Shown here: one piece after another, positions 640 to 46,116 of the stretch | Position numbering within the stretch: the stretch's first letter is position 1 | Layout: each line of letters begins with the position of its first letter | DNA from: a virus | Taxonomy: Duplodnaviria > Caudoviricetes | IMG/VR virus record: IMGVR_UViG_3300017933_000003 | Coordinates: 15,653-79,652 of that record | Length of the DNA: 64,000 nt | Direction: 5' to 3' (one strand) | Notes under the pieces: model-generated | Database searches by the model: none | Seen by the model: only the letters and a program-made list of their open reading frames with translations | Told to the model about the DNA's origin: nothing | Translations under genes and position numbers: made by a program

Positions 640-1146
640 ATGAAGTGTTCTCGATGTGATAGGAACGATCTTACTGAAGAAGATTTTTATAAAACTTCAA
701 GTGGATATCTTTATTCTTTCTGTAAAGTTTGTCATAATAAACAGAGCGCTAAGGCAAAGAAAGCCAGGTATCAGCTTCCTGAAAATAAAATTAAGATGTC
801 TCAAAAAGCTAAGCGGGCGAGACAAAATCCTGAAAAACGAGCAAATGTAATTTTTACAGATTCAAAAAGTTCTGACAAAAAACATAATAGAGAGTTCGAT
901 CTAACAGTAGATTTTATTAAGGAAATTATTAGCGCAGAATGTTCTTATTGTGGTGAAACTGAATTGCAAATGACAGTGGATAGAATAGATAATAATATTG
1001 GTCATTTACAAAACAATGTTGTGGCTTCCTGTATTAGATGTAATTTAATAAGAAAAGCGATGCCATACGAAGCTTGGCTGTGTCTATTGCCGGGTTTGAG
1101 AGAAGCGAGGGAGAAAAAATTATTTGTCGATTGGTTGGGTAAATAG
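640..1146 (+). CDS. HNH-type homing endonuclease with CxxC zinc fingers
   Basis: CSYCG...VDRIDNNIGHLQNNVVASCIRCN. Confidence 0.8.
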   Translation: MKCSRCDRNDLTEEDFYKTSSGYLYSFCKVCHNKQSAKAKKARYQLPENKIKMSQKAKRARQNPEKRANVIFTDSKSSDKKHNREFDLTVDFIKEIISAECSYCGETELQMTVDRIDNNIGHLQNNVVASCIRCNLIRKAMPYEAWLCLLPGLREAREKKLFVDWLGK

Positions 1147-1169: not shown

Positions 1170-1252
1170 GGGAAGGTAGCTCAGTGTCAGAGCGCAAGGC
1201 GTCCGCAAGGAAAACCTTGAGGTCGGTGGTTTGATTCCATCCCTTCCCACCA
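1170..1252 (+). tRNA. tRNA-Phe-like gene with expanded 15-nt anticodon loop
   Basis: acceptor GGGAAGG/CCTTCCC, ACCA end, D arm GCTC/GAGC, T arm GGTGG-TTTGATT-CCATC; stem CAAGG/CCTTG encloses CGTCCGCAAGGAAAA. Confidence 0.7.
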
Positions 1253-1312
1253 AGCTGAATGCAGATGTGATTACATCGGAAAAATGCAAAATCTCATCAA
1301 CTCTTGTCAGCT
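1253..1312 (+). ncRNA. tRNA-spacer RNA motif, copy 1
   Basis: AGCTGA/TCAGCT closing stem, ATGC, inner stem GATGTGATT/AATCTCATC, ACAT loop start, AACTCTTG. Confidence 0.65.
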
Positions 1313-1317
1313 TTTAT

Positions 1318-1412
1318 GCACCGATAGCTCAGTGTTAGAGCAGCTGGTCAATGTCCGAATAAAAACGGATAAACTTGCAGGTCGTGTGGTTCAACTCCCG
1401 CTCGGTGCCCCA
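1318..1412 (+). tRNA. tRNA-Thr-like gene with hairpin insertion replacing the anticodon loop
   Basis: acceptor GCACCGA/TCGGTGC + CCCA; GAGCAGCTG...GCAGGTC resembles Thr tRNAs; insert TGTCCG-AATAAAAA-CGGATA. Confidence 0.6.
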
Positions 1413-1452
1413 CTTATGGCTTGATTCATGTAAAAGTGAATTGTGCCACCAC

Positions 1453-1510
1453 ACCGAATGCCAGTAGGATTACATACCATAAAAAACAAATCTTACTAAC
1501 TATTGTCGGT
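1453..1510 (+). ncRNA. tRNA-spacer RNA motif, copy 2
   Basis: ACCGA/TCGGT closing stem, ATGC, AGTAGGATT/AATCTTACT, ACAT, AACTATTG. Confidence 0.65.
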
Positions 1511-1512
1511 AT

Positions 1513-2469: not shown

Positions 2470-2524
2470 GGAAACAAATGCCCGAAAGGGATTACATTTT
2501 TATTAGTAAAGCGACATGTTTTCC
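2470..2524 (+). ncRNA. tRNA-spacer RNA motif, compact variant
   Basis: GGAAACA/TGTTTTCC closing stem, AATGC-CCGAAAGGG-ATTACAT. Confidence 0.45.
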
Positions 2525-2547: not shown

Positions 2548-3093
2548 ATGAGCACGAAGAAATGCACTCAATGCGGTATTGAAAAAGAATTTTCGGAATT
2601 TAGCCCGAAAGGTAATGGTAAATACGCCAGTCGATGTAAAATTTGTATCGCCGCTAATAAACGCGTAAAATATGTTAGGCACCCAGGGGCGACCCGTCCT
2701 CCTGTTTTAGAAGGAGATACTAAGCGGTGTCGAATCTGTTTAGAAGTGAAAGATATAAGTGAGTTTTATTCTAATAATGGATGTGGCACCCATAGAAATG
2801 AATGCAAATCTTGCCTAATAGACAAAAGAAAAAAGAAATACGATCAAACGCGCCAAATTTTATGGAACTATCTAAAAGAGCATCCGTGTGTAGATTGTAG
2901 TGAAGACGATCCGCTCGTTTTGGAATTTGACCATATTTCGAATAAATTTCAAGAAATTAGTGATCTAATAAGAAATGGATATAATGTAGAAACGATTTTC
3001 AAAGAGATTGAAAAGTGTGAAGTAAGATGTGCCAATTGTCATCGCAGAAAAACTGCGATTCAACTCAATTGGTATAAAGATGTGCAAAAGTAA
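2548..3093 (+). CDS. HNH homing endonuclease
   Basis: repeated CxxC fingers; CVDC...LEFDH...CEVRCANCHRRKT; ATG 2548 preferred over track start inside tRNA. Confidence 0.85.
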   Translation: MSTKKCTQCGIEKEFSEFSPKGNGKYASRCKICIAANKRVKYVRHPGATRPPVLEGDTKRCRICLEVKDISEFYSNNGCGTHRNECKSCLIDKRKKKYDQTRQILWNYLKEHPCVDCSEDDPLVLEFDHISNKFQEISDLIRNGYNVETIFKEIEKCEVRCANCHRRKTAIQLNWYKDVQK

Positions 3094-4840: not shown

Positions 4841-5734
4841 ATGAAACCAGATTTCGAGACAAATTGTGGATTTTGTGGAAAACTTTTTATCGTCAAAAGA
4901 AAAAGTTATCTCGATCAAATTAGACGAAACAGTAATCATACTTTTTATTGTAGCGACGAATGTCGTCGTGAAAAAGCTAAGACAGGACAATATATAAATT
5001 GTCTTATTTGTGGCAAAGAAGTTTATAAAAAACTAAATGAAATAGAAGCGGGCGCCCGCTTTTGTTCCTCATCTTGCGCAGCCCAATATAATAATCAAAT
5101 CAGATTAACTACAAAAGGCAAACTTAAAAACTTAATTTGTGCCAAATGTGGTTGTGAGTATATAGGCTCAATTCATACTCCTACATCAACAGGGTTATGT
5201 GATTTGTGTGGTAGTGAGTCTAATTGTATTGATTGTGGTGCAATAATTCACGGGAGTTCTGGCATAAAATATTGTGATTTTTGTAGAACAAAAATAGTTT
5301 CTACTAAAATTAAAAACAGAATTAATAATGGAACTTTATTTTCTAAAGCAATTAAATGTGAATATATGTTCAATGATAAAAAGATAAGGTGCGATTCCAA
5401 ATTAGAGTATGTCTGTCTGACTTATTTTCAATCCACATATGATGTGTTAGATATGAAAAGGGCGGATATGGTAATTGCATATATCTTTGATGAAAAAATA
5501 TGTCATTACTATCCTGATTTTGAGATCTCTTTAAAAGATGGAACCAAATATCTCATAGAATGTAAGGGCGTGGTGGGCAAAAAATTATCAGATAAGTGGC
5601 ACGATTATAATAAAAAAGCAGTAGAGAAGAAAAAAGTTTTAGAAAAATGGTGCCAAGAAAACGGATATATACCGTTTTGGTTCGATCAACAACGGCATAA
5701 TAAGATATATAAAAACACGAAAATAGATGCGTAG
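4841..5734 (+). CDS. zinc-finger plus PD-(D/E)XK (TnsA-like) endonuclease
   Basis: CxxC/FCS repeats; DSKLE...YYPDFEI...YLIECKG. Confidence 0.75.
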   Translation: MKPDFETNCGFCGKLFIVKRKSYLDQIRRNSNHTFYCSDECRREKAKTGQYINCLICGKEVYKKLNEIEAGARFCSSSCAAQYNNQIRLTTKGKLKNLICAKCGCEYIGSIHTPTSTGLCDLCGSESNCIDCGAIIHGSSGIKYCDFCRTKIVSTKIKNRINNGTLFSKAIKCEYMFNDKKIRCDSKLEYVCLTYFQSTYDVLDMKRADMVIAYIFDEKICHYYPDFEISLKDGTKYLIECKGVVGKKLSDKWHDYNKKAVEKKKVLEKWCQENGYIPFWFDQQRHNKIYKNTKIDA

Positions 5735-5806: not shown

Positions 5807-5881
5807 CCGCCATAACGAGCCGGTAGCTCTGTCGGGTCTTATAAATCTGACGGTCAGGTTCAACTCCTGAATGGCGGACCA
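5807..5881 (+). tRNA. tRNA-Ile(TAT)
   Basis: CCGCCAT/ATGGCGG + ACCA; CGGGT-CTTATAA-ATCTG; TCAGG-TTCAACT-CCTGA. Confidence 0.8.
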
Positions 5882-5946
5882 GACGAATGCTCGATTGGGA
5901 TTACATTACTTCAATGAACAAACATCTCAGTCAAAATCTTGTCGTC
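5882..5946 (+). ncRNA. tRNA-spacer RNA motif, copy 3
   Basis: GACGA/TCGTC, ATGC, GATTGGGAT/ATCTCAGTC, TACAT, AAAATCTTG. Confidence 0.65.
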
Positions 5947-5949
5947 AAT

Positions 5950-6023
5950 GGCACTTTAGTTCAATGATAGAACAGACCGCTGAAGACGGTCGGACAACAG
6001 TTTGATTCTGTTAGGTGCCACCA
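5950..6023 (+). tRNA. tRNA-Phe(GAA)
   Basis: GGCACTT/AGGTGCC + ACCA; GACCG-CTGAAGA-CGGTC. Confidence 0.9.
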
Positions 6024-10056: not shown

Positions 10057-11121
10057 ATGGCTAAAATAATAGGATTAGGAAGATTCTTTCCAGAAAAAGT
10101 AAGAAAAAATTCGGATTGGAGTCCTGAATTGATTAAATCGTTTCAAGATCATCTCAAGAGGGATTTATTAGATATTGTTGATCACGGTCTTCACAAAGAT
10201 ATAGATCAATTTTCTCTAGATAATATCCAAAGAGAAAAATCGGATCCGTTTCTTGGAGCTAGTGAAAGAAGAGTAGTTTCAGATCATATGACTTCTTATG
10301 ATTTAGATTTTGAAGTAAGTAAAATTGCTATTCAAGGTTTTGATCCCGAAAATATAGGTGCCGCCTTTTCTTACTCATTTATGCCTGATCGAATTGGTTT
10401 ACCTTCGGCGGGTGTAGTTGCCAACCTCTTAGGAATGAAAAATGCCTTCGGTTGTCATATTGAAACTGCCTGTTCATCGCAAATACTTCAAATTAAATTA
10501 GCTACCGCTTTAGTGGATTCTGGGGTAGTATCCGGAGTGCTCTTAATGGCTTCCAACCTTATGACTCGTGGTTTACTGATGGGACACCCCGCCTCTCCTG
10601 GTATTGGCGATGCCGCCACAGCAATTCTAATTGGACCAGATACTAACGAAGGACATAAAATCATCAACACTTTTAGCCGCACCCATGGGGAATATAAAGA
10701 TGCCGTGGTGTGGAGAAGAAAACATGATGAGAATCAAAATTGGTGGAAATCTGGGGGAGATTTTTATTTAGGAAGCTATGATAGTGACAAGGCTCGTGAG
10801 TTAGTGCAAATCACTGCCAAGTGCGGCGCAGACACTATTTCGTCTGCCTTGCAAGAGGTAGGAATGTCTGTTAAGGATTTGAATTTTGTTGTATCGGTTC
10901 AGCCTCGAAAATGGATCAATACAGCTATCACTCGACTCTTGGGTATGCCGGATGAAAATTCTATCGAAACCTACGAGCAGTATGCTCACATTGGCTGCTG
11001 TGGTCCGGTGGTCAATTTGATTGAAGCCGATCTACAAGGTAAGATTAAAAAGGGTGATGTAGTTGCTTTGTATGCTCAAGGTGCTGGATTTACTAGAAGC
11101 GCTTCGATTATTGAGTGGTAA
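10057..11121 (+). CDS. 3-oxoacyl-ACP synthase III (FabH-like) family protein
   Basis: ETACSS catalytic Cys, GDAATA, C-terminal GAGFT. Confidence 0.85.
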   Translation: MAKIIGLGRFFPEKVRKNSDWSPELIKSFQDHLKRDLLDIVDHGLHKDIDQFSLDNIQREKSDPFLGASERRVVSDHMTSYDLDFEVSKIAIQGFDPENIGAAFSYSFMPDRIGLPSAGVVANLLGMKNAFGCHIETACSSQILQIKLATALVDSGVVSGVLLMASNLMTRGLLMGHPASPGIGDAATAILIGPDTNEGHKIINTFSRTHGEYKDAVVWRRKHDENQNWWKSGGDFYLGSYDSDKARELVQITAKCGADTISSALQEVGMSVKDLNFVVSVQPRKWINTAITRLLGMPDENSIETYEQYAHIGCCGPVVNLIEADLQGKIKKGDVVALYAQGAGFTRSASIIEW

Positions 11122-11123
11122 TT

Positions 11124-11933
11124 ATGTTCACTTTTATGCTATTAATATTAGCACTTCTTACTCCCTCCCCGCAACCTAAGGTAATACTGGTTACTATTGA
11201 TGGAGTAATGTGGCAAGATATTTACAGCAGTAATGCTCGGTTAATTGTTCCTAATTTGTATCTTGATTTTGTGCAGCAGGGAATTGCGGTTGGTAAAATG
11301 TCTCCCATGTTTGCCGCTGGTCCCATGCATATTTCTTTGCCTGGTTATTTAGAGATTACTCGAGGACATCCTTCCAAAGATTGCCAACGTAACGATTGTC
11401 ATCCCACTATCGATAGAAGTATTTTTCAGCTTTTTTCAAGCTCCGCGTTCTTTGCGTCATGGAAAACCATCCAGCGCACCATTCCTGCTAATGTCAACGT
11501 TTATACTGACAATGGTCCTCAATATCGTTGGGATGTAAATACCATCAGTATAGCTGATGAGTATCTTAAGACCAACACCCCAGAGTTTTTGTGGGTGGCT
11601 CTTGGAGACACTGATGAATGGGCGCATGCCAATGATCATACACGCTATTTGGCGGCTCTCACTGCTGCTGATAAATATATTCGTTCCTTGGTAGTCAGAT
11701 ATCCTAATACCACTATTATCGTGACCACCGATCATGGTCGTAGCAGTAATTTTCGAGACCATGGAATAGATTCTGCTTCAGGAAGAGTGTGGTTGATGAT
11801 GCGTGGTCCCAGTGTTCCACATAAAGGTTTGGTTGCTGCTAACTATTTGAGTCTTTCTAATATTTATGATACAATGTCAGAGATACAGTCTGGAAATCAT
11901 TCGAATAATTCTATTCTTACAAGGATTCAATGA
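11124..11933 (+). CDS. alkaline phosphatase/sulfatase superfamily protein
   Basis: hydrophobic N-terminus, LVTIDGV, LGDTDEWAH, TTDHGR metal-binding motifs. Confidence 0.8.
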   Translation: MFTFMLLILALLTPSPQPKVILVTIDGVMWQDIYSSNARLIVPNLYLDFVQQGIAVGKMSPMFAAGPMHISLPGYLEITRGHPSKDCQRNDCHPTIDRSIFQLFSSSAFFASWKTIQRTIPANVNVYTDNGPQYRWDVNTISIADEYLKTNTPEFLWVALGDTDEWAHANDHTRYLAALTAADKYIRSLVVRYPNTTIIVTTDHGRSSNFRDHGIDSASGRVWLMMRGPSVPHKGLVAANYLSLSNIYDTMSEIQSGNHSNNSILTRIQ

Positions 11934-12526
11934 AGACAACAATTATTAATTTATATGGTGGTCCGGGTTGTGGTAAAAGTACCTCAGCAGCCTATCTTTT
12001 TTATCTATTGAAATGCGCAGGAGAAAATGCCGAATTAGTTAGAGAATATGTCAAGGATTGGGCATATGAATCTCGTAAGTTTTCTGCTTATGACGAAATC
12101 TATTTTTTGGGTAAACAAGTGCGCCATGAAAGTATGTTGTTCGGTAAAGTAGATTACATTGTCACCGACGCTCCAGTGTACATGACAGCCTACTATGCTT
12201 CCATCTATTGCAGTCCCACTCTGGCTAAAGGTGTTAAGGCTACTGCCCAAGCTTTCTATCAGCAGGTAGCCGAGGATGGTCATCAGCATCTGCACATCAT
12301 GTTGAATCGTATTCGACCCTATGCTCAAGAGGGTCGATATCAAAACGAAAGCCAAGCTCATGCGGTCGACGATGGTGTAGGAGATATGCTGCGCACCCAA
12401 GGTATTAGTTTTATTCTTGCCGATCCCAGCGAAGAATCTTTACGGAGAGCGCTGGAGCATTGTAAAAAAATGCGCCACAACGCCGGCATGTTAGATTCTG
12501 CCCGAACCCTTGACACGGAATCGTAG
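11930..12526 (+). CDS. P-loop kinase/ATPase (NadR/AAA_28-like)
   Basis: GGPGCGKST Walker A; IVTDAP. Confidence 0.8.
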   Translation: MKTTIINLYGGPGCGKSTSAAYLFYLLKCAGENAELVREYVKDWAYESRKFSAYDEIYFLGKQVRHESMLFGKVDYIVTDAPVYMTAYYASIYCSPTLAKGVKATAQAFYQQVAEDGHQHLHIMLNRIRPYAQEGRYQNESQAHAVDDGVGDMLRTQGISFILADPSEESLRRALEHCKKMRHNAGMLDSARTLDTES

Positions 12527-12543
12527 AAGATTACCTTACTTCC

Positions 12544-12963
12544 ATGATCGACTCTCTAAAAGACCTGGGAATTACCGGGGAAGAAGAAATAGAACAGCTT
12601 AATCTCATCTTCCAAGAGAAGCTAGGAATTAGCTTTAATCAAATGGTAGGGATGTTAGAAACCGTTTTGATCCAGCGAGCCGATGAGGTAGCGTCGGATT
12701 TTCTGGTGATGACTGCTTTTGGAGATTACGGTAAGCTGTTAGAAGACCAACCAAAAATGGCGCAATTTTTGCGTCAAGAAGCTTCTCAAAAAGATAATTG
12801 GAAGCTAACCTATGTTGGTTCCAGTCGCGACCCTCAGTTGCCCAACATGATTGAAGTATTGTTTGGTAACATAGCGGTGGATGAGGGAGAGTCTTTAAAA
12901 GGTTATGTTTTCCTAAATTATGCTGGCAAAATTCTTCATGTCTTTGTGCAAGGTGATCCTTAA
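12544..12963 (+). CDS. hypothetical protein
   Basis: ORF downstream of TTGACA promoter-like site at 12510. Confidence 0.75.
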   Translation: MIDSLKDLGITGEEEIEQLNLIFQEKLGISFNQMVGMLETVLIQRADEVASDFLVMTAFGDYGKLLEDQPKMAQFLRQEASQKDNWKLTYVGSSRDPQLPNMIEVLFGNIAVDEGESLKGYVFLNYAGKILHVFVQGDP

Positions 12964-14060: not shown

Positions 14061-14535
14061 CATGACAGTTGCAACATAAGACTTCAAGATTATCATCCGC
14101 ATCGTTCATGCGATTACGATCTTTATGATGAACGATGATAGCCGCTTCGTGTTTGTCATAGCCGCAACGTTCACATTTTTTAGGACGCCCATCCGTAAAA
14201 AATACTTTACGACGATATGTATTATCAGCTCGACCTTTGCCATAATGGGGTGGCATAATTTCTTGAATACCGCCGACACGTTGAGCGGTGTCTTTGTGTT
14301 CGCGACAACAAAAGTAAAGTTTTGATTTAGATGCGGCTTGTCTTGATAGATTTAAGTAAAACCCTTTATTACAATAAGCGCACTTGACATTTGGTTCTGG
14401 TGGTATTATATTTTTGCTCTTGTATTCTCCGGAACATTTTCGAGAACAAAATTTTCCAAAACCCCTTTTAATTTCCTTGTTTTCGATATAAGTTTCTTTT
14501 CCGCAGTTCAAGCAGTTAATCTTTGTTGTAGCCAT
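14035..14535 (-). CDS. HNH homing endonuclease
   Basis: FCS/FCC zinc motifs; CERCG...VHHKDRNRMND..DNLEVLCCNCH; start MATTK. Confidence 0.85.
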   Translation of the reverse strand: MATTKINCLNCGKETYIENKEIKRGFGKFCSRKCSGEYKSKNIIPPEPNVKCAYCNKGFYLNLSRQAASKSKLYFCCREHKDTAQRVGGIQEIMPPHYGKGRADNTYRRKVFFTDGRPKKCERCGYDKHEAAIIVHHKDRNRMNDADDNLEVLCCNCHAIEHWAEN

Positions 14536-14616
14536 AGTGGAAATACCTTTCTTTGGGCAAAGTCGCCCTATTCCACTATAACAATATATGCATAGCTTGT
14601 TATAAGTATTAATAAC

Positions 14617-14690
14617 GGGGCGCGAGTAGGATACGAATACGGCACGCTTGCACCGTGCAAGACGGGGAGGGTAACCCCGGCGCTCCACCA
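14617..14690 (+). tRNA. non-canonical tRNA-Ala(TGC)
   Basis: GGGGCGC/GCGCTCC (G3.U70) + ACCA; GCACG-CTTGCAC-CGTGC; T loop AGGGTAA. Confidence 0.8.
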
Positions 14691-14700
14691 ACAAAGTTAT

Positions 14701-14774
14701 GGGGTCGTGATATAACGCGATTATGGATCCTCGGCAGGGATCTCACACGGGTTGGACTCCCGTCGACTCCACCA
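14701..14774 (+). tRNA. non-canonical tRNA-Ala(GGC)
   Basis: GGGGTCG/CGACTCC (G3.U70) + ACCA; GATCC-TCGGCAG-GGATC; ACGGG-TTGGACT-CCCGT. Confidence 0.7.
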
Positions 14775-14846
14775 TAACTCGCAGTAAGCCATTTCAGTGA
14801 TCACATTTTGGCTTACTTGATCGAGTAAAATCTTGAGCTGATATAT

Positions 14847-15000
14847 ACAGCCAGCAAGTCCTAGACATGACTTGAATTCGGAAACTGTCTGGTTATACCC
14901 TGCAATTTCGAAATAATCCTTGCTGGCTGTCTTATCGCAGCGCTGAAACGAAGAGCTGGCATAGACAAGGAACCAAGTGAAAGTCTTGGGCAGGGTACCA
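14847..15000 (+). ncRNA. structured leader RNA with probable pseudoknot upstream of DUF1003 gene
   Basis: 12-bp ACAGCCAGCAAG/CTTGCTGGCTGT; 8-bp TACCCTGC (14896)/GCAGGGTA (14990). Confidence 0.55.
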
Positions 15001-18325: not shown

Positions 18326-18687
18326 GTAGAGTAGCTCGGGTAATCGCTACATAATATGTAGAGGAAAGTACGGGCTTTATAGGACAAGATGCTGGTTAAC
18401 GACCAGATACAGTAATGTAATGGAAAGTGCAACAGAAAATACAACGCCAACTGATAAGACCTAGTCTTATAAAGGGCAAGTGTGAAAAGGCGAGGTAATA
18501 GCTCACCGCATTTACAGTGATGTAAATGGCAAGTGCAAACCCCATCTAAAGCAAGGCAAACAGTAAACGCTTGAGGGCTGTCCGTCCAATGTTTACGGGT
18601 TGCTGCTTGAGTCAATAAGTAATTATTGACCTAGATTAATGATTGCCTGATTTTATACACAGAACCCGTCTTATAGGGCTGCTCTAC
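18326..18687 (+). ncRNA. rnpB: RNase P RNA
   Basis: GAGGAAAGTACGGGC, GGAAAGTGCAACAGAAA, AAACCCC..AGCAAG, ACAGAACCCGTCTTA; P1 GTAGAGTAGCTC/GGGCTGCTCTAC. Confidence 0.93.
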
Positions 18688-19102
18688 TTTTTCTATAATT
18701 AATAATGGCTGTTACTGCAATTTTAGTTTCCTCAACTGTAAGAAAATTATTTCTTATTGAATTGCATTGTTTACAACAAGGTAAAACGTTATCAACAGTA
18801 TATCCTTTAGTATTATCTATTCTGTCTAATCCAGATCCATATTTAGATTTTGCAGCAAAGAAGTCTTCACAATAATAACAAGGTTTAGAAATCAATTTTG
18901 CATATTCATCAATAGTAATTGCCCACTCTTTATGAATTTTAATGCCTCTTTGTTTAGATTTTGCAAAACGAGATCCAATTTTTTGTTGTTGTTTAGATGC
19001 AGCCTCTTTGACTTGTGGTGTTTGTTGGTAACATTTTTTACATATTGGACCAGTATACCACTGATAGCTTTCGTGTGTTCCGCATTTAATGCACGCTTTC
19101 AT
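18671..19102 (-). CDS. HNH homing endonuclease
   Basis: PCYYC...GLDRIDNTKGYTVDNVLPCCKQCN. Confidence 0.85.
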   Translation of the reverse strand: MKACIKCGTHESYQWYTGPICKKCYQQTPQVKEAASKQQQKIGSRFAKSKQRGIKIHKEWAITIDEYAKLISKPCYYCEDFFAAKSKYGSGLDRIDNTKGYTVDNVLPCCKQCNSIRNNFLTVEETKIAVTAIINYRKSRAAL

Positions 19103-32813: not shown

Positions 32814-32888
32814 GCTTCTGTAATTCAGTGGTAGAATGCTGCGCTTCCAACGCAGACGTCGCTGGTTCGAATCCAGTCGGAAGCTCCA
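32814..32888 (+). tRNA. tRNA-Gly(TCC)
   Basis: cloverleaf, CTGCG-CTTCCAA-CGCAG, TCCA. Confidence 0.95.
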
Positions 32889-33005
32889 GGACGAATGCAG
32901 ATAGAATTACATTGGATAAAGTTGGGCGCAAGCCTGGCGAGATAGTTCAAGCCTATCAACAGTTCCGTGAGGAATTGAAAACAATTTTATCAATTCTTGT
33001 CGTCT
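32889..33005 (+). ncRNA. tRNA-spacer RNA motif, extended copy
   Basis: GGACGA/TCGTCT, ATGC, GATAGAATT/AATTTTATC, ACAT, AATTCTTG; two GNRA hairpins in loop. Confidence 0.65.
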
Positions 33006-33757
33006 ATAAGCGGAATTAGTTCAGCAGTAGAATGCAACATTGCCAATGTTGATGTGATGGGGGCAGCACCCATATTCCGCTCCAATTTTTCAGAGATAAT
33101 GCTCTTAATTATATCGAAATACTTTTTTGAAGATTTTTCCTTGAAGTAATTTTCACGAGACACATCAATAATAACAAGTTCAATTCCTCTTTCGATGCAG
33201 GCTTGAAACTTTCTGTTGTCATTGTTTTGAATAGATGCTAACTTTTCTACACCATATATTGGTTCATAATGGAAGATACCGTTCAATTCAAAAGCAAGAT
33301 TAAGAGAGGGAACATAAATATCGAGTTCGGCATTGATAACTTCTTTGCTGTTAAAAAGTATTTTAAGATTGGGTAATTGACTAGTTAGTTGTATTTCTAA
33401 CCAAGCCTCCAATTTAGAACGCCTATTTCCTTTTATTTTATGTGTATTATTATATTTTGCCGCGCAGCTTCGTGAGCAAAAATGATTTGGAGAGTTTTTA
33501 ATTTGATTAGGAAGTTTTTCAAACATTATTTTACACTGTAAACACTCTACTTTTTGTTTAGTAATTGCTGCCTGCGCAGCACATTTATGAGAACAATAAA
33601 TTATCTTCTCGTGATTATGTTCACCAAACTTACTTTGTATTACATTCTTGGGGCGAGTAAAAGAAATGTGGCATTGTGGGCATTCTAAAGTGACGATAGT
33701 GCCAGATTGTAGTGAGTTGATATAAGTCATGAACTCGGGAGTATTGATGGGTAGCAT
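32990..33757 (-). CDS. zinc-finger plus DUF559/PD-(D/E)XK-like endonuclease
   Basis: paralog of 22615-23331: RRSKLE...ELDIYVPSLNLAFELNGIFHY. Confidence 0.8.
   Translation of the reverse strand: MLPINTPEFMTYINSLQSGTIVTLECPQCHISFTRPKNVIQSKFGEHNHEKIIYCSHKCAAQAAITKQKVECLQCKIMFEKLPNQIKNSPNHFCSRSCAAKYNNTHKIKGNRRSKLEAWLEIQLTSQLPNLKILFNSKEVINAELDIYVPSLNLAFELNGIFHYEPIYGVEKLASIQNNDNRKFQACIERGIELVIIDVSRENYFKEKSSKKYFDIIKSIISEKLERNMGAAPITSTLAMLHSTAELIPLIDDKN
33010..33084 (+). tRNA. tRNA-Gly(GCC)
   Basis: GCGGAAT/ATTCCGC + TCCA; CAACA-TTGCCAA-TGTTG; T loop GGCAGCA. Confidence 0.9.
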
Positions 33758-45477: not shown

Positions 45478-46116
45478 ATGTTCTGTATCATTTATAAAAT
45501 TGTTAACCTTCGGAACAAGAAACTCTATATAGGGCAGACTTGGTCATCCTTATCTCATCGATGGGGACAGCATATCTCGTCTAAAAGATGCCTCAAATTA
45601 GCTAACGCTATCGACAAATATGGCGTTTCTAATTTTAGCATAGAACTTATCACCATAGCTCATACACAAGAGATGGCTGATTGGCTTGAAGATTATTTTA
45701 TCAATAAATTTGATACTATTAAATTAGGGTACAATATTCGAGGTGGTGGCAGTCGTGGAAAACTTTCACAAGCAACCCGACAGAAAATATCTATTGCTAA
45801 TACTGGTAAAAAATTTACAGAAGCAACAAAGATGAAATGTTCTTTAGCTCGTAAAGGCAAGTTAGGTCCAAATAAAGGAAAGATGATACCATTAAGTCCT
45901 GGTGCGGGCACACCCAAAGGAACAAAACCGTGGAATACGGGCACTAAAGGTGTTGTAGTTGCTTGGAACAAAGGTAGAAATAGTAATGATCGTTTGTTTA
46001 CTGAAGAACAGGAACTTGTGATAGCGAAGGATGAAAGATCATCCAGAGTTTTAGCTAAGGAATATGGCGTATCTCGCTCTCACATTCTAAATATAAGGAA
46101 GCGCCATAAGGAGTAA
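45478..46116 (+). CDS. GIY-YIG homing endonuclease with NUMOD-type repeats
   Basis: IIYKIVN...LYIGQT...RW..H, GYN. Confidence 0.9.
   Translation: MFCIIYKIVNLRNKKLYIGQTWSSLSHRWGQHISSKRCLKLANAIDKYGVSNFSIELITIAHTQEMADWLEDYFINKFDTIKLGYNIRGGGSRGKLSQATRQKISIANTGKKFTEATKMKCSLARKGKLGPNKGKMIPLSPGAGTPKGTKPWNTGTKGVVVAWNKGRNSNDRLFTEEQELVIAKDERSSRVLAKEYGVSRSHILNIRKRHKE

What the first reader, a model, noticed from the sequence alone, without database searches (positions are those of the whole stretch)
1253..1510. Covarying RNA motif that starts at tRNA CCA ends and fills tRNA spacers (five copies)
Seen: four copies (1253-1312, 1453-1510, 5882-5946, 32889-33005) share one architecture. A closing helix P1 has covarying sequence (GCTGA/TCAGC, ACCGA/TCGGT, GACGA/TCGTC twice). 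It is followed by invariant ATGC, then a 9-bp helix P2 whose sequence differs in every copy but always pairs (GATGTGATT/AATCTCATC, AGTAGGATT/AATCTTACT, GATTGGGAT/ATCTCAGTC, GATAGAATT/AATTTTATC). The loop begins ACAT and the 3' internal-loop strand is AA(C/T/A)..T(C/A)TTG. A fifth compact variant is at 2470-2524. Each starts 0-1 nt after a CCA end, and the four full copies end 2-5 nt before the next tRNA gene. Inference: tRNA maturation would release them as discrete small RNAs; ATG and CAT could form a short pseudoknot. Possible roles are a new self-cleaving or processing ribozyme (tRNA-linked theta ribozymes are the precedent, but those are HDV-like and this topology is not), a protein-binding decoy, or an antitoxin mimic. 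I do not recognise the family.
Basis: partly seen in the sequence, partly recalled or inferred. Interest (0 to 1): 0.92.

Follow-up and report, generated by a model that had tools for sequence, protein, structure and literature searches.

The report
Phage Y RNAs wedged between tRNAs
The repeated hairpin that fills spacers between tRNA genes in this huge phage is not a new ribozyme but a compact bacterial-type Y RNA, the small RNA partner of the Ro60/Rsr protein that the phage encodes 4 kb upstream. What is unusual is that the phage has placed it inside its tRNA arrays.

Summary
Four of the five reported copies are real: 1253-1312, 1452-1511, 5881-5947 and 32889-33005. They belong to a structured RNA family with strong covariation (93% of cells paired, against 28-56% in slid controls; 14 of 15 pairs change on both sides). 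The fifth copy (2470-2524) does not fit the family model.

The invariant blocks GAAUGC, UACAU and CUUGUC match the Ro60/Rsr-binding module of Rfam YrlA (Y RNA-like). The scores fall below the gathering threshold because the short copies lack the tRNA-like domain. The same viral contig encodes a full-length Ro60/Rsr protein 4.2 kb upstream on the same strand.

In IMG/VR, 20 of 24 contigs carrying the RNA encode a TROVE protein, against 0 of 21 control contigs. In bacteria the same short motif lies within 0.5 kb of rsr genes that are 46-54% identical to the phage gene. There it sits in tandem with YrlA copies that pass the Rfam threshold.

In phages, 41 of 58 distinct copies abut a tRNA end (3.5% expected). 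tRNA processing therefore probably releases them, which is an inference. The own contig and 7 of 23 related records also carry an RNase P RNA.

Verdict: a known kind (Y RNA) in a new compact, tRNA-punctuated phage arrangement.

The parts
1253..1312 (+). Y RNA copy 1, short form (60 nt): P1 1253-1258/1307-1312, GAAUGC, P2 1264-1272/1293-1301, loop starting UACAU
   Evidence: CM R1 gives 73.3 bits, E 3e-15. Rfam YrlA gives 29 bits, E 1.7e-4, aligned end to end. Fold. The copy starts right after the CCA at 1250-1252.
1452..1511 (+). Y RNA copy 2, short form (60 nt)
   Evidence: CM R1 gives 72.0 bits, E 6e-15. The fold has z -2.3. The copy follows CCACCA at 1446-1451 and ends 2 nt before tRNA-Tyr at 1513.
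5881..5947 (+). Y RNA copy 3, short form (66 nt, P2 shifted by 2 nt)
   Evidence: CM R1 gives 36 bits, E 3e-6. There is a weak Rfam YrlB hit of 22 bits. The copy lies between tRNA-Ile 5807-5881 and tRNA-Phe 5950-6023.
32889..33005 (+). Y RNA copy 4, long form (117 nt), with three hairpins inside P2, one of them a T-arm mimic at 32941-32957 (GAUAG-UUCAAGC-CUAUC)
   Evidence: CM R1 gives 51.8 bits. Rfam YrlA gives 24 bits, E 0.0025. The fold has z -3.4. The T-arm motif is shown. The copy lies between tRNA-Gly 32814-32888 and the tRNA at 33010-33081.
2470..2524 (+). Doubtful fifth element. It has only the 5' half of the motif (AAUGC, local CCC-GAAA-GGG hairpin, AUUACAU) and may be a remnant.
   Evidence: Not found by CM R1; 3.6 bits with filters off. 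Its fold is no better than shuffles, z -0.3.
1170..1252 (+). Upstream tRNA with an enlarged anticodon loop. Its CCA end abuts copy 1.
   Evidence: Rfam tRNA 54.4 bits at 1170-1249; sequence.
1318..1451 (+). tRNA with a long insertion (Rfam 1318-1409) plus a 42-nt tail that ends in a second GCCACCA. It lies between copies 1 and 2.
   Evidence: Rfam tRNA 38.2 bits; sequence.
18328..18689 (+). Bacterial type A RNase P RNA encoded by the phage. It is the likely enzyme for the cut that frees the 3' side of each Y RNA.
   Evidence: RF00010 gives 281 bits, E 8e-91, over the full model. The same family is present in 7 of 23 related Y-RNA-bearing phage records, 6 of them over the gathering score.

Best explanation
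The elements are bacterial-type Y RNAs, the small non-coding RNA partners of the ring-shaped Ro60/Rsr protein. The phage encodes that protein 4.2 kb upstream of the first copy, on the same strand (outside the window, at contig 10970-12694).

P1, the GAAUGC / AA..CUUGUC internal loop and P2 together form the Rsr-binding module. The three 60-66-nt copies are minimal Y RNAs of YrlB type, with no tRNA-like domain. The 117-nt copy carries a partial tRNA-like domain with a T-arm mimic, as YrlA does.

Inferred steps:
- The copies are co-transcribed with the tRNA array.
- They are cut out by the tRNA-maturation machinery. RNase P, whose RNA the phage encodes itself, cuts 2-5 nt after P1 at the 5' end of the next tRNA. 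An unidentified nuclease cuts after the upstream CCA.
- This yields a Y RNA with paired ends and a short 3' tail.
- Bound to Rsr, they would gate the ring. The long form would tether Rsr to an exonuclease such as host PNPase, as in the RYPER complex, for decay or quality control of structured RNAs during infection.
For: Shown here:
1. The Rfam YrlA consensus aligns end to end with copies 1 and 4 and shares GAAUGC, UAC, AA and CUUGUC. The published YrlA motif GNCGAAN0-1G (PMC4201824) is matched exactly in copies 3 and 4 and with one change each in copies 1 and 2.
2. The 574-aa ORF hits Pfam vWA_Ro60 (8e-16) and TROVE (4e-8). It aligns over its full length to D. radiodurans Rsr 2nvo (7.5e-17) and to phage phiLo Ro60 9kop.
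3. The family is real. There are 69 CM hits in IMG/VR loci, with 93.2% of cells paired against 28-56% when slid, and 14 of 15 pairs changing on both sides. The blocks GAAUGC/UACAU/UUGUC also hold in 33 hits that the seed pattern did not select.
4. Co-occurrence: 20 of 24 RNA-bearing viral contigs carry TROVE, against 0 of 21 contigs with chance pattern hits.
5. In bacterial genomes, 8 of 13 structure-filtered hits lie within 0.5 kb, on the same strand, of an rsr gene 46-54% identical to the phage gene. There they sit in tandem with YrlA copies above the Rfam gathering score, at 76.4, 75.0 and 74.9 bits.
6. Long phage forms carry GGUUCRAnUCC T-arm mimics.
7. 41 of 58 distinct phage copies lie within 10 nt of a same-strand tRNA end, against 3.5% of random placements.

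From the literature: phage Ro60 binds phage Y-like RNAs that carry a CGAA motif, and it assembles with host PNPase (PMC12135203).
Against: - No copy reaches the Rfam YrlA gathering score: 29 and 24 bits against 69.
- Three of the four copies lack the tRNA-like domain that defines YrlA.
- Binding to Rsr, expression and the RNA ends were not observed.
- Four RNA-bearing contigs showed no TROVE gene; one of them is rated 100% complete and another 82%.
- No nuclease is known that would cut between an encoded CCA and a helix starting 0-1 nt later, so the 5' end of the mature RNA is uncertain.
- No PNPase gene lies on this contig fragment, which is only 18% of the genome.
Confidence: 0.82

Rival explanations
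1. The motif is a new self-cleaving or processing ribozyme that frees the tRNA 3' CCA end, as the tRNA-linked HDV-like theta ribozymes do.
For: The motif starts 0-1 nt after the CCA in all four copies. 29 of 58 phage copies lie within 10 nt of an upstream tRNA end. It has invariant unpaired nucleotides in an internal loop. No known nuclease obviously cuts at that junction.
Against: The invariant nucleotides are those of the YrlA Rsr-binding module. The same motif lies beside rsr in bacteria with no tRNA upstream. It co-occurs tightly with TROVE, 20 of 24 against 0 of 21. No self-cleaving ribozyme family matched at E up to 10. Some phage copies are not next to tRNAs, for example the four tandem copies in L038.
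Confidence: 0.03
2. The elements are structured spacers that serve only tRNA-operon processing or insulation. In this reading they are stable hairpins that guide RNase P or RNase E, or protect tRNA ends, and have no link to Ro60.
For: They are strongly enriched at tRNA ends. The phage carries its own RNase P RNA. T4 also has stable small RNAs of unknown role inside its tRNA cluster (own knowledge).
Against: This does not explain why the loop nucleotides equal the YrlA consensus, why TROVE co-occurs, or why bacteria keep the same motif beside rsr and away from tRNAs.
Confidence: 0.05
3. They are Y RNAs that stay attached to the upstream tRNA. RNase P cuts only at tRNA 5' ends, which would give tRNA-Y RNA chimeras. 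A genuine tRNA would then take the place of the YrlA tRNA-like domain and load Rsr onto phage tRNAs or pre-tRNAs.
For: There is no spacer between the CCA and P1. The short copies lack a tRNA-like domain of their own. YrlA is by definition an Rsr module plus a tRNA mimic (PMC4201824).
Against: This is inference only. The same short forms exist beside rsr in bacteria without a tRNA. An encoded CCA suggests that the tRNA is meant to be freed.
Confidence: 0.1

Closest known systems
YrlA (Rfam RF02553), the bacterial Y RNA with a tRNA-like domain (Chen et al. 2014, PMC4201824)
   Same: The 5' and 3' ends pair. Both have the GNCGAAN0-1G / GAAUGC 5' block, a 3' AA..CUUGUC block and a second helix, and both are linked to rsr on the same strand. 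The long copy and other long phage forms carry a T-arm mimic. In bacteria the short motif sits in tandem with YrlA copies that pass the threshold.
   Different: Three of the four copies have a plain A-rich loop where YrlA has a 54-nt tRNA-like domain. Scores are 24-29 bits against a gathering score of 69. UACAU after P2 is invariant here. The copies lie 4-37 kb from rsr, inside tRNA arrays, rather than within 4 kb of rsr.
YrlB / Yrn2-type second Y RNAs (Salmonella YrlB RF02565, M. smegmatis YrlB, D. radiodurans Yrn2)
   Same: These are short Rsr-bound hairpin RNAs without a full tRNA-like domain. They accompany a YrlA-type RNA in the same genome and carry the GNCGAA motif.
   Different: There is no significant sequence match: copy 3 scores 22 bits against RF02565, E 0.5. 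The published examples are encoded beside rsr, not between tRNAs.
Phage Ro60 with Yrl1/Yrl2 of Thermus phage phiLo (PMC12135203); Y RNAs of mycobacteriophages, CcrColossus and Bacillus phage G
   Same: A phage-encoded Ro60 comes with phage-encoded Y-like RNAs that carry a CGAA motif in a stem-bulge-stem. For phiLo, binding and a ternary complex with host PNPase were shown.
   Different: Those RNAs lie just upstream of the Ro60 gene. Here there are four copies dispersed through a tRNA array and flush with tRNA ends, in a lineage of huge phages that also carries RNase P RNA.
tRNA-linked theta (HDV-like) ribozymes of gut phages, and the T4 tRNA-cluster stable RNAs (species 1 and 2)
   Different: They share neither sequence nor topology. 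No Rfam ribozyme family matched.

Membership tests
YrlA (RF02553) / bacterial Y RNA | GNCGAAN0-1G motif near the 5' end (Chen et al. 2014) | tested here: met
   Copies 3 and 4 read GACGAAUG, an exact match. Copy 1 reads GCUGAAUG and copy 2 reads ACCGAAUG, one change each. GAAUGC is at least 90% conserved in 33 hits that the pattern did not select.
YrlA (RF02553) / bacterial Y RNA | 5' and 3' ends pair into a stem that flanks an internal loop and a second helix | tested here: met
   Folds. Covariation on 58 distinct sequences gives P1 94.8% and P2 92.1% paired, and 14 of 15 pairs change on both sides.
YrlA (RF02553) / bacterial Y RNA | Encoded near a Ro60/Rsr (TROVE) gene on the same strand (published criterion: within about 4 kb) | tested here: inconclusive
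   rsr lies at contig 10970-12694 (+). Copy 1 starts 4.2 kb downstream on the same strand. The others are 4.4, 8.8 and 35.8 kb away. In bacteria the same motif lies within 0.5 kb of rsr.
YrlA (RF02553) / bacterial Y RNA | tRNA-like domain (D- and T-arm mimics) inside the second helix | tested here: not met
   Absent in copies 1-3, which have an unstructured loop of about 17-22 nt. Copy 4 has a T-arm mimic and two further hairpins. This feature separates YrlA from the second, YrlB-type Y RNAs.
YrlA (RF02553) / bacterial Y RNA | Score at or above the Rfam gathering threshold (69 bits) | tested here: not met
   29 bits (copy 1) and 24 bits (copy 4). No long phage form passes. Neighbouring bacterial YrlA copies do pass, at 75-76 bits.
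Y RNA (functional class) | Bound by Ro60/Rsr in vivo | not testable with these tools
   Only indirect evidence: TROVE in 20 of 24 contigs against 0 of 21 controls, and linkage to rsr in bacteria.
Ro60/Rsr protein (partner gene) | TROVE HEAT-repeat ring plus C-terminal vWA domain | tested here: met
   Pfam vWA_Ro60 58.8 bits and TROVE 33.2 bits, both over their cut-offs. The ORF aligns to 2nvo, 9kop and RO60 chains over residues 68-558.
Self-cleaving ribozymes (HDV-like/theta, hammerhead, twister, pistol, hatchet and others in Rfam) | Match to a family covariance model | tested here: not met
   No such family appears at E up to 10 on the motif regions. Catalysis itself is not testable here.

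The most novel reading that the evidence does not exclude
In a lineage of huge phages, Y RNAs have moved out of the rsr operon and into tRNA arrays, so their biogenesis is 'tRNA-punctuated'. RNase P, whose RNA the phage encodes, and the tRNA 3'-end machinery would cut them out. In the boldest version, the short modules act while still joined to the upstream tRNA, so a real tRNA replaces the YrlA tRNA mimic. That would couple phage Ro60 directly to surveillance or protection of the phage's own tRNA pool.
Probability: 0.15. Interest if true: 0.7.

Novelty: new variant of a known kind. Interest (0 to 1): 0.42.

Why it matters
Y RNAs and Ro60 are known in bacteria and a few phages, but their role in infection is still unclear.

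This work shows that a compact Y RNA subclass, which the Rfam thresholds miss, is widespread. It occurs in at least 22 IMG/VR contigs, in Myxococcus phage Mx1 and in several bacterial phyla. In phages it is systematically interleaved with tRNA genes, often in genomes that also carry RNase P RNA.

This ties the Ro60 RNP to tRNA metabolism in huge phages. It gives a search model for annotating these RNAs; in Mx1 one of them is currently annotated as a hypothetical protein. It also points to a cultivable system, Mx1 on Myxococcus, in which biogenesis and function can be tested.

Finally, it removes a false lead: this is not a new ribozyme class.

Tried and rejected
- **Rfam at gathering thresholds:** only tRNAs and RNase P RNA were found, nothing on the motif.
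- **Ribozyme families:** none matched at E up to 10.
- **First MAFFT alignment of 24 sequences (A1):** it placed the P2 gaps inconsistently on the two strands. It was replaced by a 10-sequence alignment of equal P2 length (A2) for the model.
- **Fifth copy (2470-2524):** rejected as a member.
- **Long phage forms:** they do not reach the YrlA gathering score.
- **Sequencing runs:** no RNA holder is listed; all holders are wetland metagenome DNA. No expression or end-mapping was possible, and read laying was not used.
- **PNPase (RNase_PH) and RtcB:** not found on the own contig. The contig is only 18% of the genome, so this says little.
- **Mycobacteriophage Bxz1:** a weak YrlA-like hit (20.6 bits) exactly fills the tRNA-Met/tRNA-Cys spacer, 35 kb from its Ro gene. 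It is too weak to count.
- **Two reviews on bacterial Y RNAs:** not held in the library. No supplementary tables of Chen 2014 are held. I therefore could not check whether any of their 22 phage RNAs abut tRNAs.
- **AUG/CAU pseudoknot:** untestable, because both blocks are invariant.
- **R-scape:** not available. Pair counts with shuffle and slide controls were used instead.

Full report
**Setting.** The window is bases 15653-79652 of a 79.6-kb IMG/VR viral contig. CheckV rates it 18% complete, so it is a fragment of a genome of roughly 400 kb or more. Large ORFs match jumbo-phage families such as NadV, a cytidyltransferase/NUDIX protein and a Dda-like helicase. The window carries more than 20 tRNA genes, several with long insertions, and a full bacterial type A RNase P RNA at 18328-18689 (281 bits).

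**Observation.** The four full copies are at the reported positions and fold as described: a 5-6-bp P1, then AUGC, a 9-bp P2, a loop that opens with (U)ACAU, and a 3' internal-loop strand AA..U(C/A)UUG. Copy 1 has one U-U mismatch in P2. Each copy begins 0-1 nt after an encoded CCA and ends 2-5 nt before the next tRNA. The fifth 'compact variant' at 2470-2524 has only the 5' half of the motif. A family covariance model misses it, and it scores 3.6 bits with filters off. I treat it as at most a remnant.

**What it is.** A permissive Rfam scan gave one informative family. YrlA (RF02553, 'Y RNA-like') aligns end to end with copy 1 (29 bits, E 1.7e-4 on the local stretch) and with copy 4 (24 bits, E 0.0025). 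Copy 3 gives a weak YrlB hit.
- The alignment shows why the scores are low. The YrlA consensus is cgaAUGC - helix - CUA - [54-nt tRNA-like domain] - helix - aaAaAcUuGucG. The window copies share GAAUGC, UAC, AA and CUUGUC, but a short A-rich loop stands where the tRNA-like domain should be.
- The published diagnostic motif GNCGAAN0-1G is proposed to be the Rsr contact (PMC4201824). It is matched exactly in copies 3 and 4 and with one change each in copies 1 and 2.

**The partner protein.** A TROVE search of the whole contig found a 574-aa ORF at contig 10970-12694 on the + strand, which ends 4.2 kb upstream of copy 1. It hits Pfam vWA_Ro60 (8e-16) and TROVE (4e-8), both above their cut-offs. 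It aligns over nearly its full length to D. radiodurans Rsr (2nvo, 7.5e-17), Thermus phage phiLo Ro60 (9kop/9l5y, 6e-17) and RO60 (9nen).

**Relatives and covariation.**
- A degenerate pattern scan of IMG/VR returned 103 loci. About 24 distinct matches had full P1 and P2 pairing with different helix sequences, and many were preceded by ACCA.
- A covariance model built from 10 of them (A2, R1) found exactly the four window copies in the own contig. It found 69 hits (58 distinct) in 42 sources, including many that the pattern had not selected.
- On that alignment 93.2% of cells are standard pairs, against 28-56% when partners are slid by 1-3 columns. 14 of 15 pairs show changes on both sides, and no shuffle out of 500 reached any measure. 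The alignment was fitted to the model, which favours the structure, but the margin is large.
- In the 33 hits that the pattern did not select, GAAUGC, UACAU and UUGUC remain at least 90% conserved.
- The hits come in short (56-75 nt) and long (78-134 nt) forms. The long forms carry canonical T-arm mimics (GGUUCRAnUCC) plus one or two further hairpins. One even scores as a tRNA, at 39.9 bits. This is the YrlA architecture, although none passes the Rfam threshold.

**Link to Ro60.**
- 20 of 24 viral contigs with the RNA encode a TROVE ORF of 520-580 aa. None of 21 contigs that matched the pattern only by chance does.
- The same pattern in 185,579 species genomes gave 13 structure-filtered hits. 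Eight of them lie within 0.5 kb, on the same strand, of an rsr gene 46-54% identical to the phage Rsr. These are MAGs labelled Neisseria, Pyrinomonadaceae and Comamonadaceae, among others.
- In those loci the short motif sits in tandem arrays with YrlA copies, three of which exceed the Rfam gathering score (76.4, 75.0 and 74.9 bits). The short form is therefore the second, YrlB-type Y RNA of this Rsr clade. This agrees with the published rule that each species has one Y RNA with a tRNA mimic and at least one hairpin-type Y RNA.

**What is particular to the phages.** 41 of 58 distinct phage copies lie within 10 nt of a same-strand tRNA end, against 3.5% of random placements in the same loci, and 11 are flanked on both sides. 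The bacterial copies are next to rsr rather than flanked by tRNAs. The closest cultured relative is Myxococcus phage Mx1 (Rsr 51% identical). Its rsr lies inside a tRNA array. One long copy starts 3 nt after tRNA-Ile and is annotated as a hypothetical protein. A second YrlA-like hit (32 bits) lies between tRNA-Glu and tRNA-Ile. RNase P RNA is present in the own contig and in 7 of 23 related RNA-bearing records.

**Mechanism.**
- Shown: the motif is a conserved, covarying RNA that carries the YrlA Rsr-binding module, and it is genomically coupled to rsr in phages and in bacteria.
- From the literature: Rsr/Ro60 binds this module. Y RNAs gate the ring or tether it to PNPase. A phage Ro60 binds phage Y-like RNAs and assembles with host PNPase.
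- Inferred: the copies are transcribed with the tRNAs. RNase P cleavage at the next tRNA leaves a 2-5-nt 3' tail, and a cut after the CCA gives a 5' end at P1. The RNPs would act on structured RNAs during infection. The nuclease for the CCA/P1 junction is unknown, so tRNA-Y chimeras remain possible.

**Rivals.** A ribozyme is unlikely. The conserved bases are the Rsr module, the motif occurs without tRNAs beside rsr in bacteria, and no ribozyme family matches. A pure processing spacer does not explain the TROVE coupling.

**Novelty.** Phage Y RNAs and tRNA-less second Y RNAs are both published, so the kind is known. I did not find three things described in the searched literature: this compact subclass with an invariant UACAU, its multi-copy dispersal through tRNA arrays of huge phages, and its association with phage RNase P RNA. 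An earlier first-stage note of this scan on the same genome had already proposed 'Y-RNA-like stem-loops in a Ro60-encoding phage'. I reached the same reading from Rfam and the TROVE search before reading that note, and have now tested it.

Noticed in passing
window 18328-18689 (+): This huge phage encodes a complete bacterial type A RNase P RNA (281 bits). The same family is found in 7 of 23 related Y-RNA-bearing phage records. A full-text search brought up no paper that pairs 'RNase P RNA' with jumbo or huge phages among those listed.
   Followed up: partly
window 1170-1252, 1318-1451, 1647-1765, 2349-2468: Several tRNAs carry long insertions: an enlarged anticodon loop, inserts of 30-45 nt, and a roughly 120-nt tRNA-like gene ending at 2468. 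The 1318-1451 gene has a 42-nt tail that repeats the GCCACCA end. They may be introns or unusual tRNAs. ARAGORN misses most of them.
   Followed up: no
L111:8608-8709 (Myxococcus phage Mx1, record 45522-45623): A long Y-RNA copy starts 3 nt after tRNA-Ile. It overlaps a 40-aa CDS annotated 'hypothetical protein' (WNM70101.1), which is probably a mis-annotation.
   Followed up: partly
L038:1354-1836 (-), 354-kb IMG/VR contig: Four tandem copies of the short Y RNA lie at a 142-nt period and are not flanked by tRNAs. This looks like a Y-RNA array in a huge phage.
   Followed up: no
L237:3736-3859 (Mycobacterium phage Bxz1, record 95735-95858): The spacer between tRNA-Met and tRNA-Cys gives a weak full-length YrlA hit (20.6 bits) and has a T-arm-like GGUUCGAUUCC. 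It lies 35 kb from the Bxz1 Ro gene. It may be a further tRNA-flanked Y RNA in a classical phage.
   Followed up: partly
contig 14210-14968 (+), upstream of the window; L111:15898-16551 in Mx1: A separate small vWA-domain protein lies near rsr in both this phage and Mx1. It could be a conserved partner of the Ro60 module.
   Followed up: no
window 640-1146, 2549-3093, 4843-5733: Cys-rich ORFs lie between the tRNAs and Y RNAs; I read them as HNH-type homing endonuclease-like from the sequence alone. They may explain the shuffling of the array. In Mx1 and Bxz1, annotated HNH endonuclease genes likewise lie among the tRNAs.
   Followed up: no
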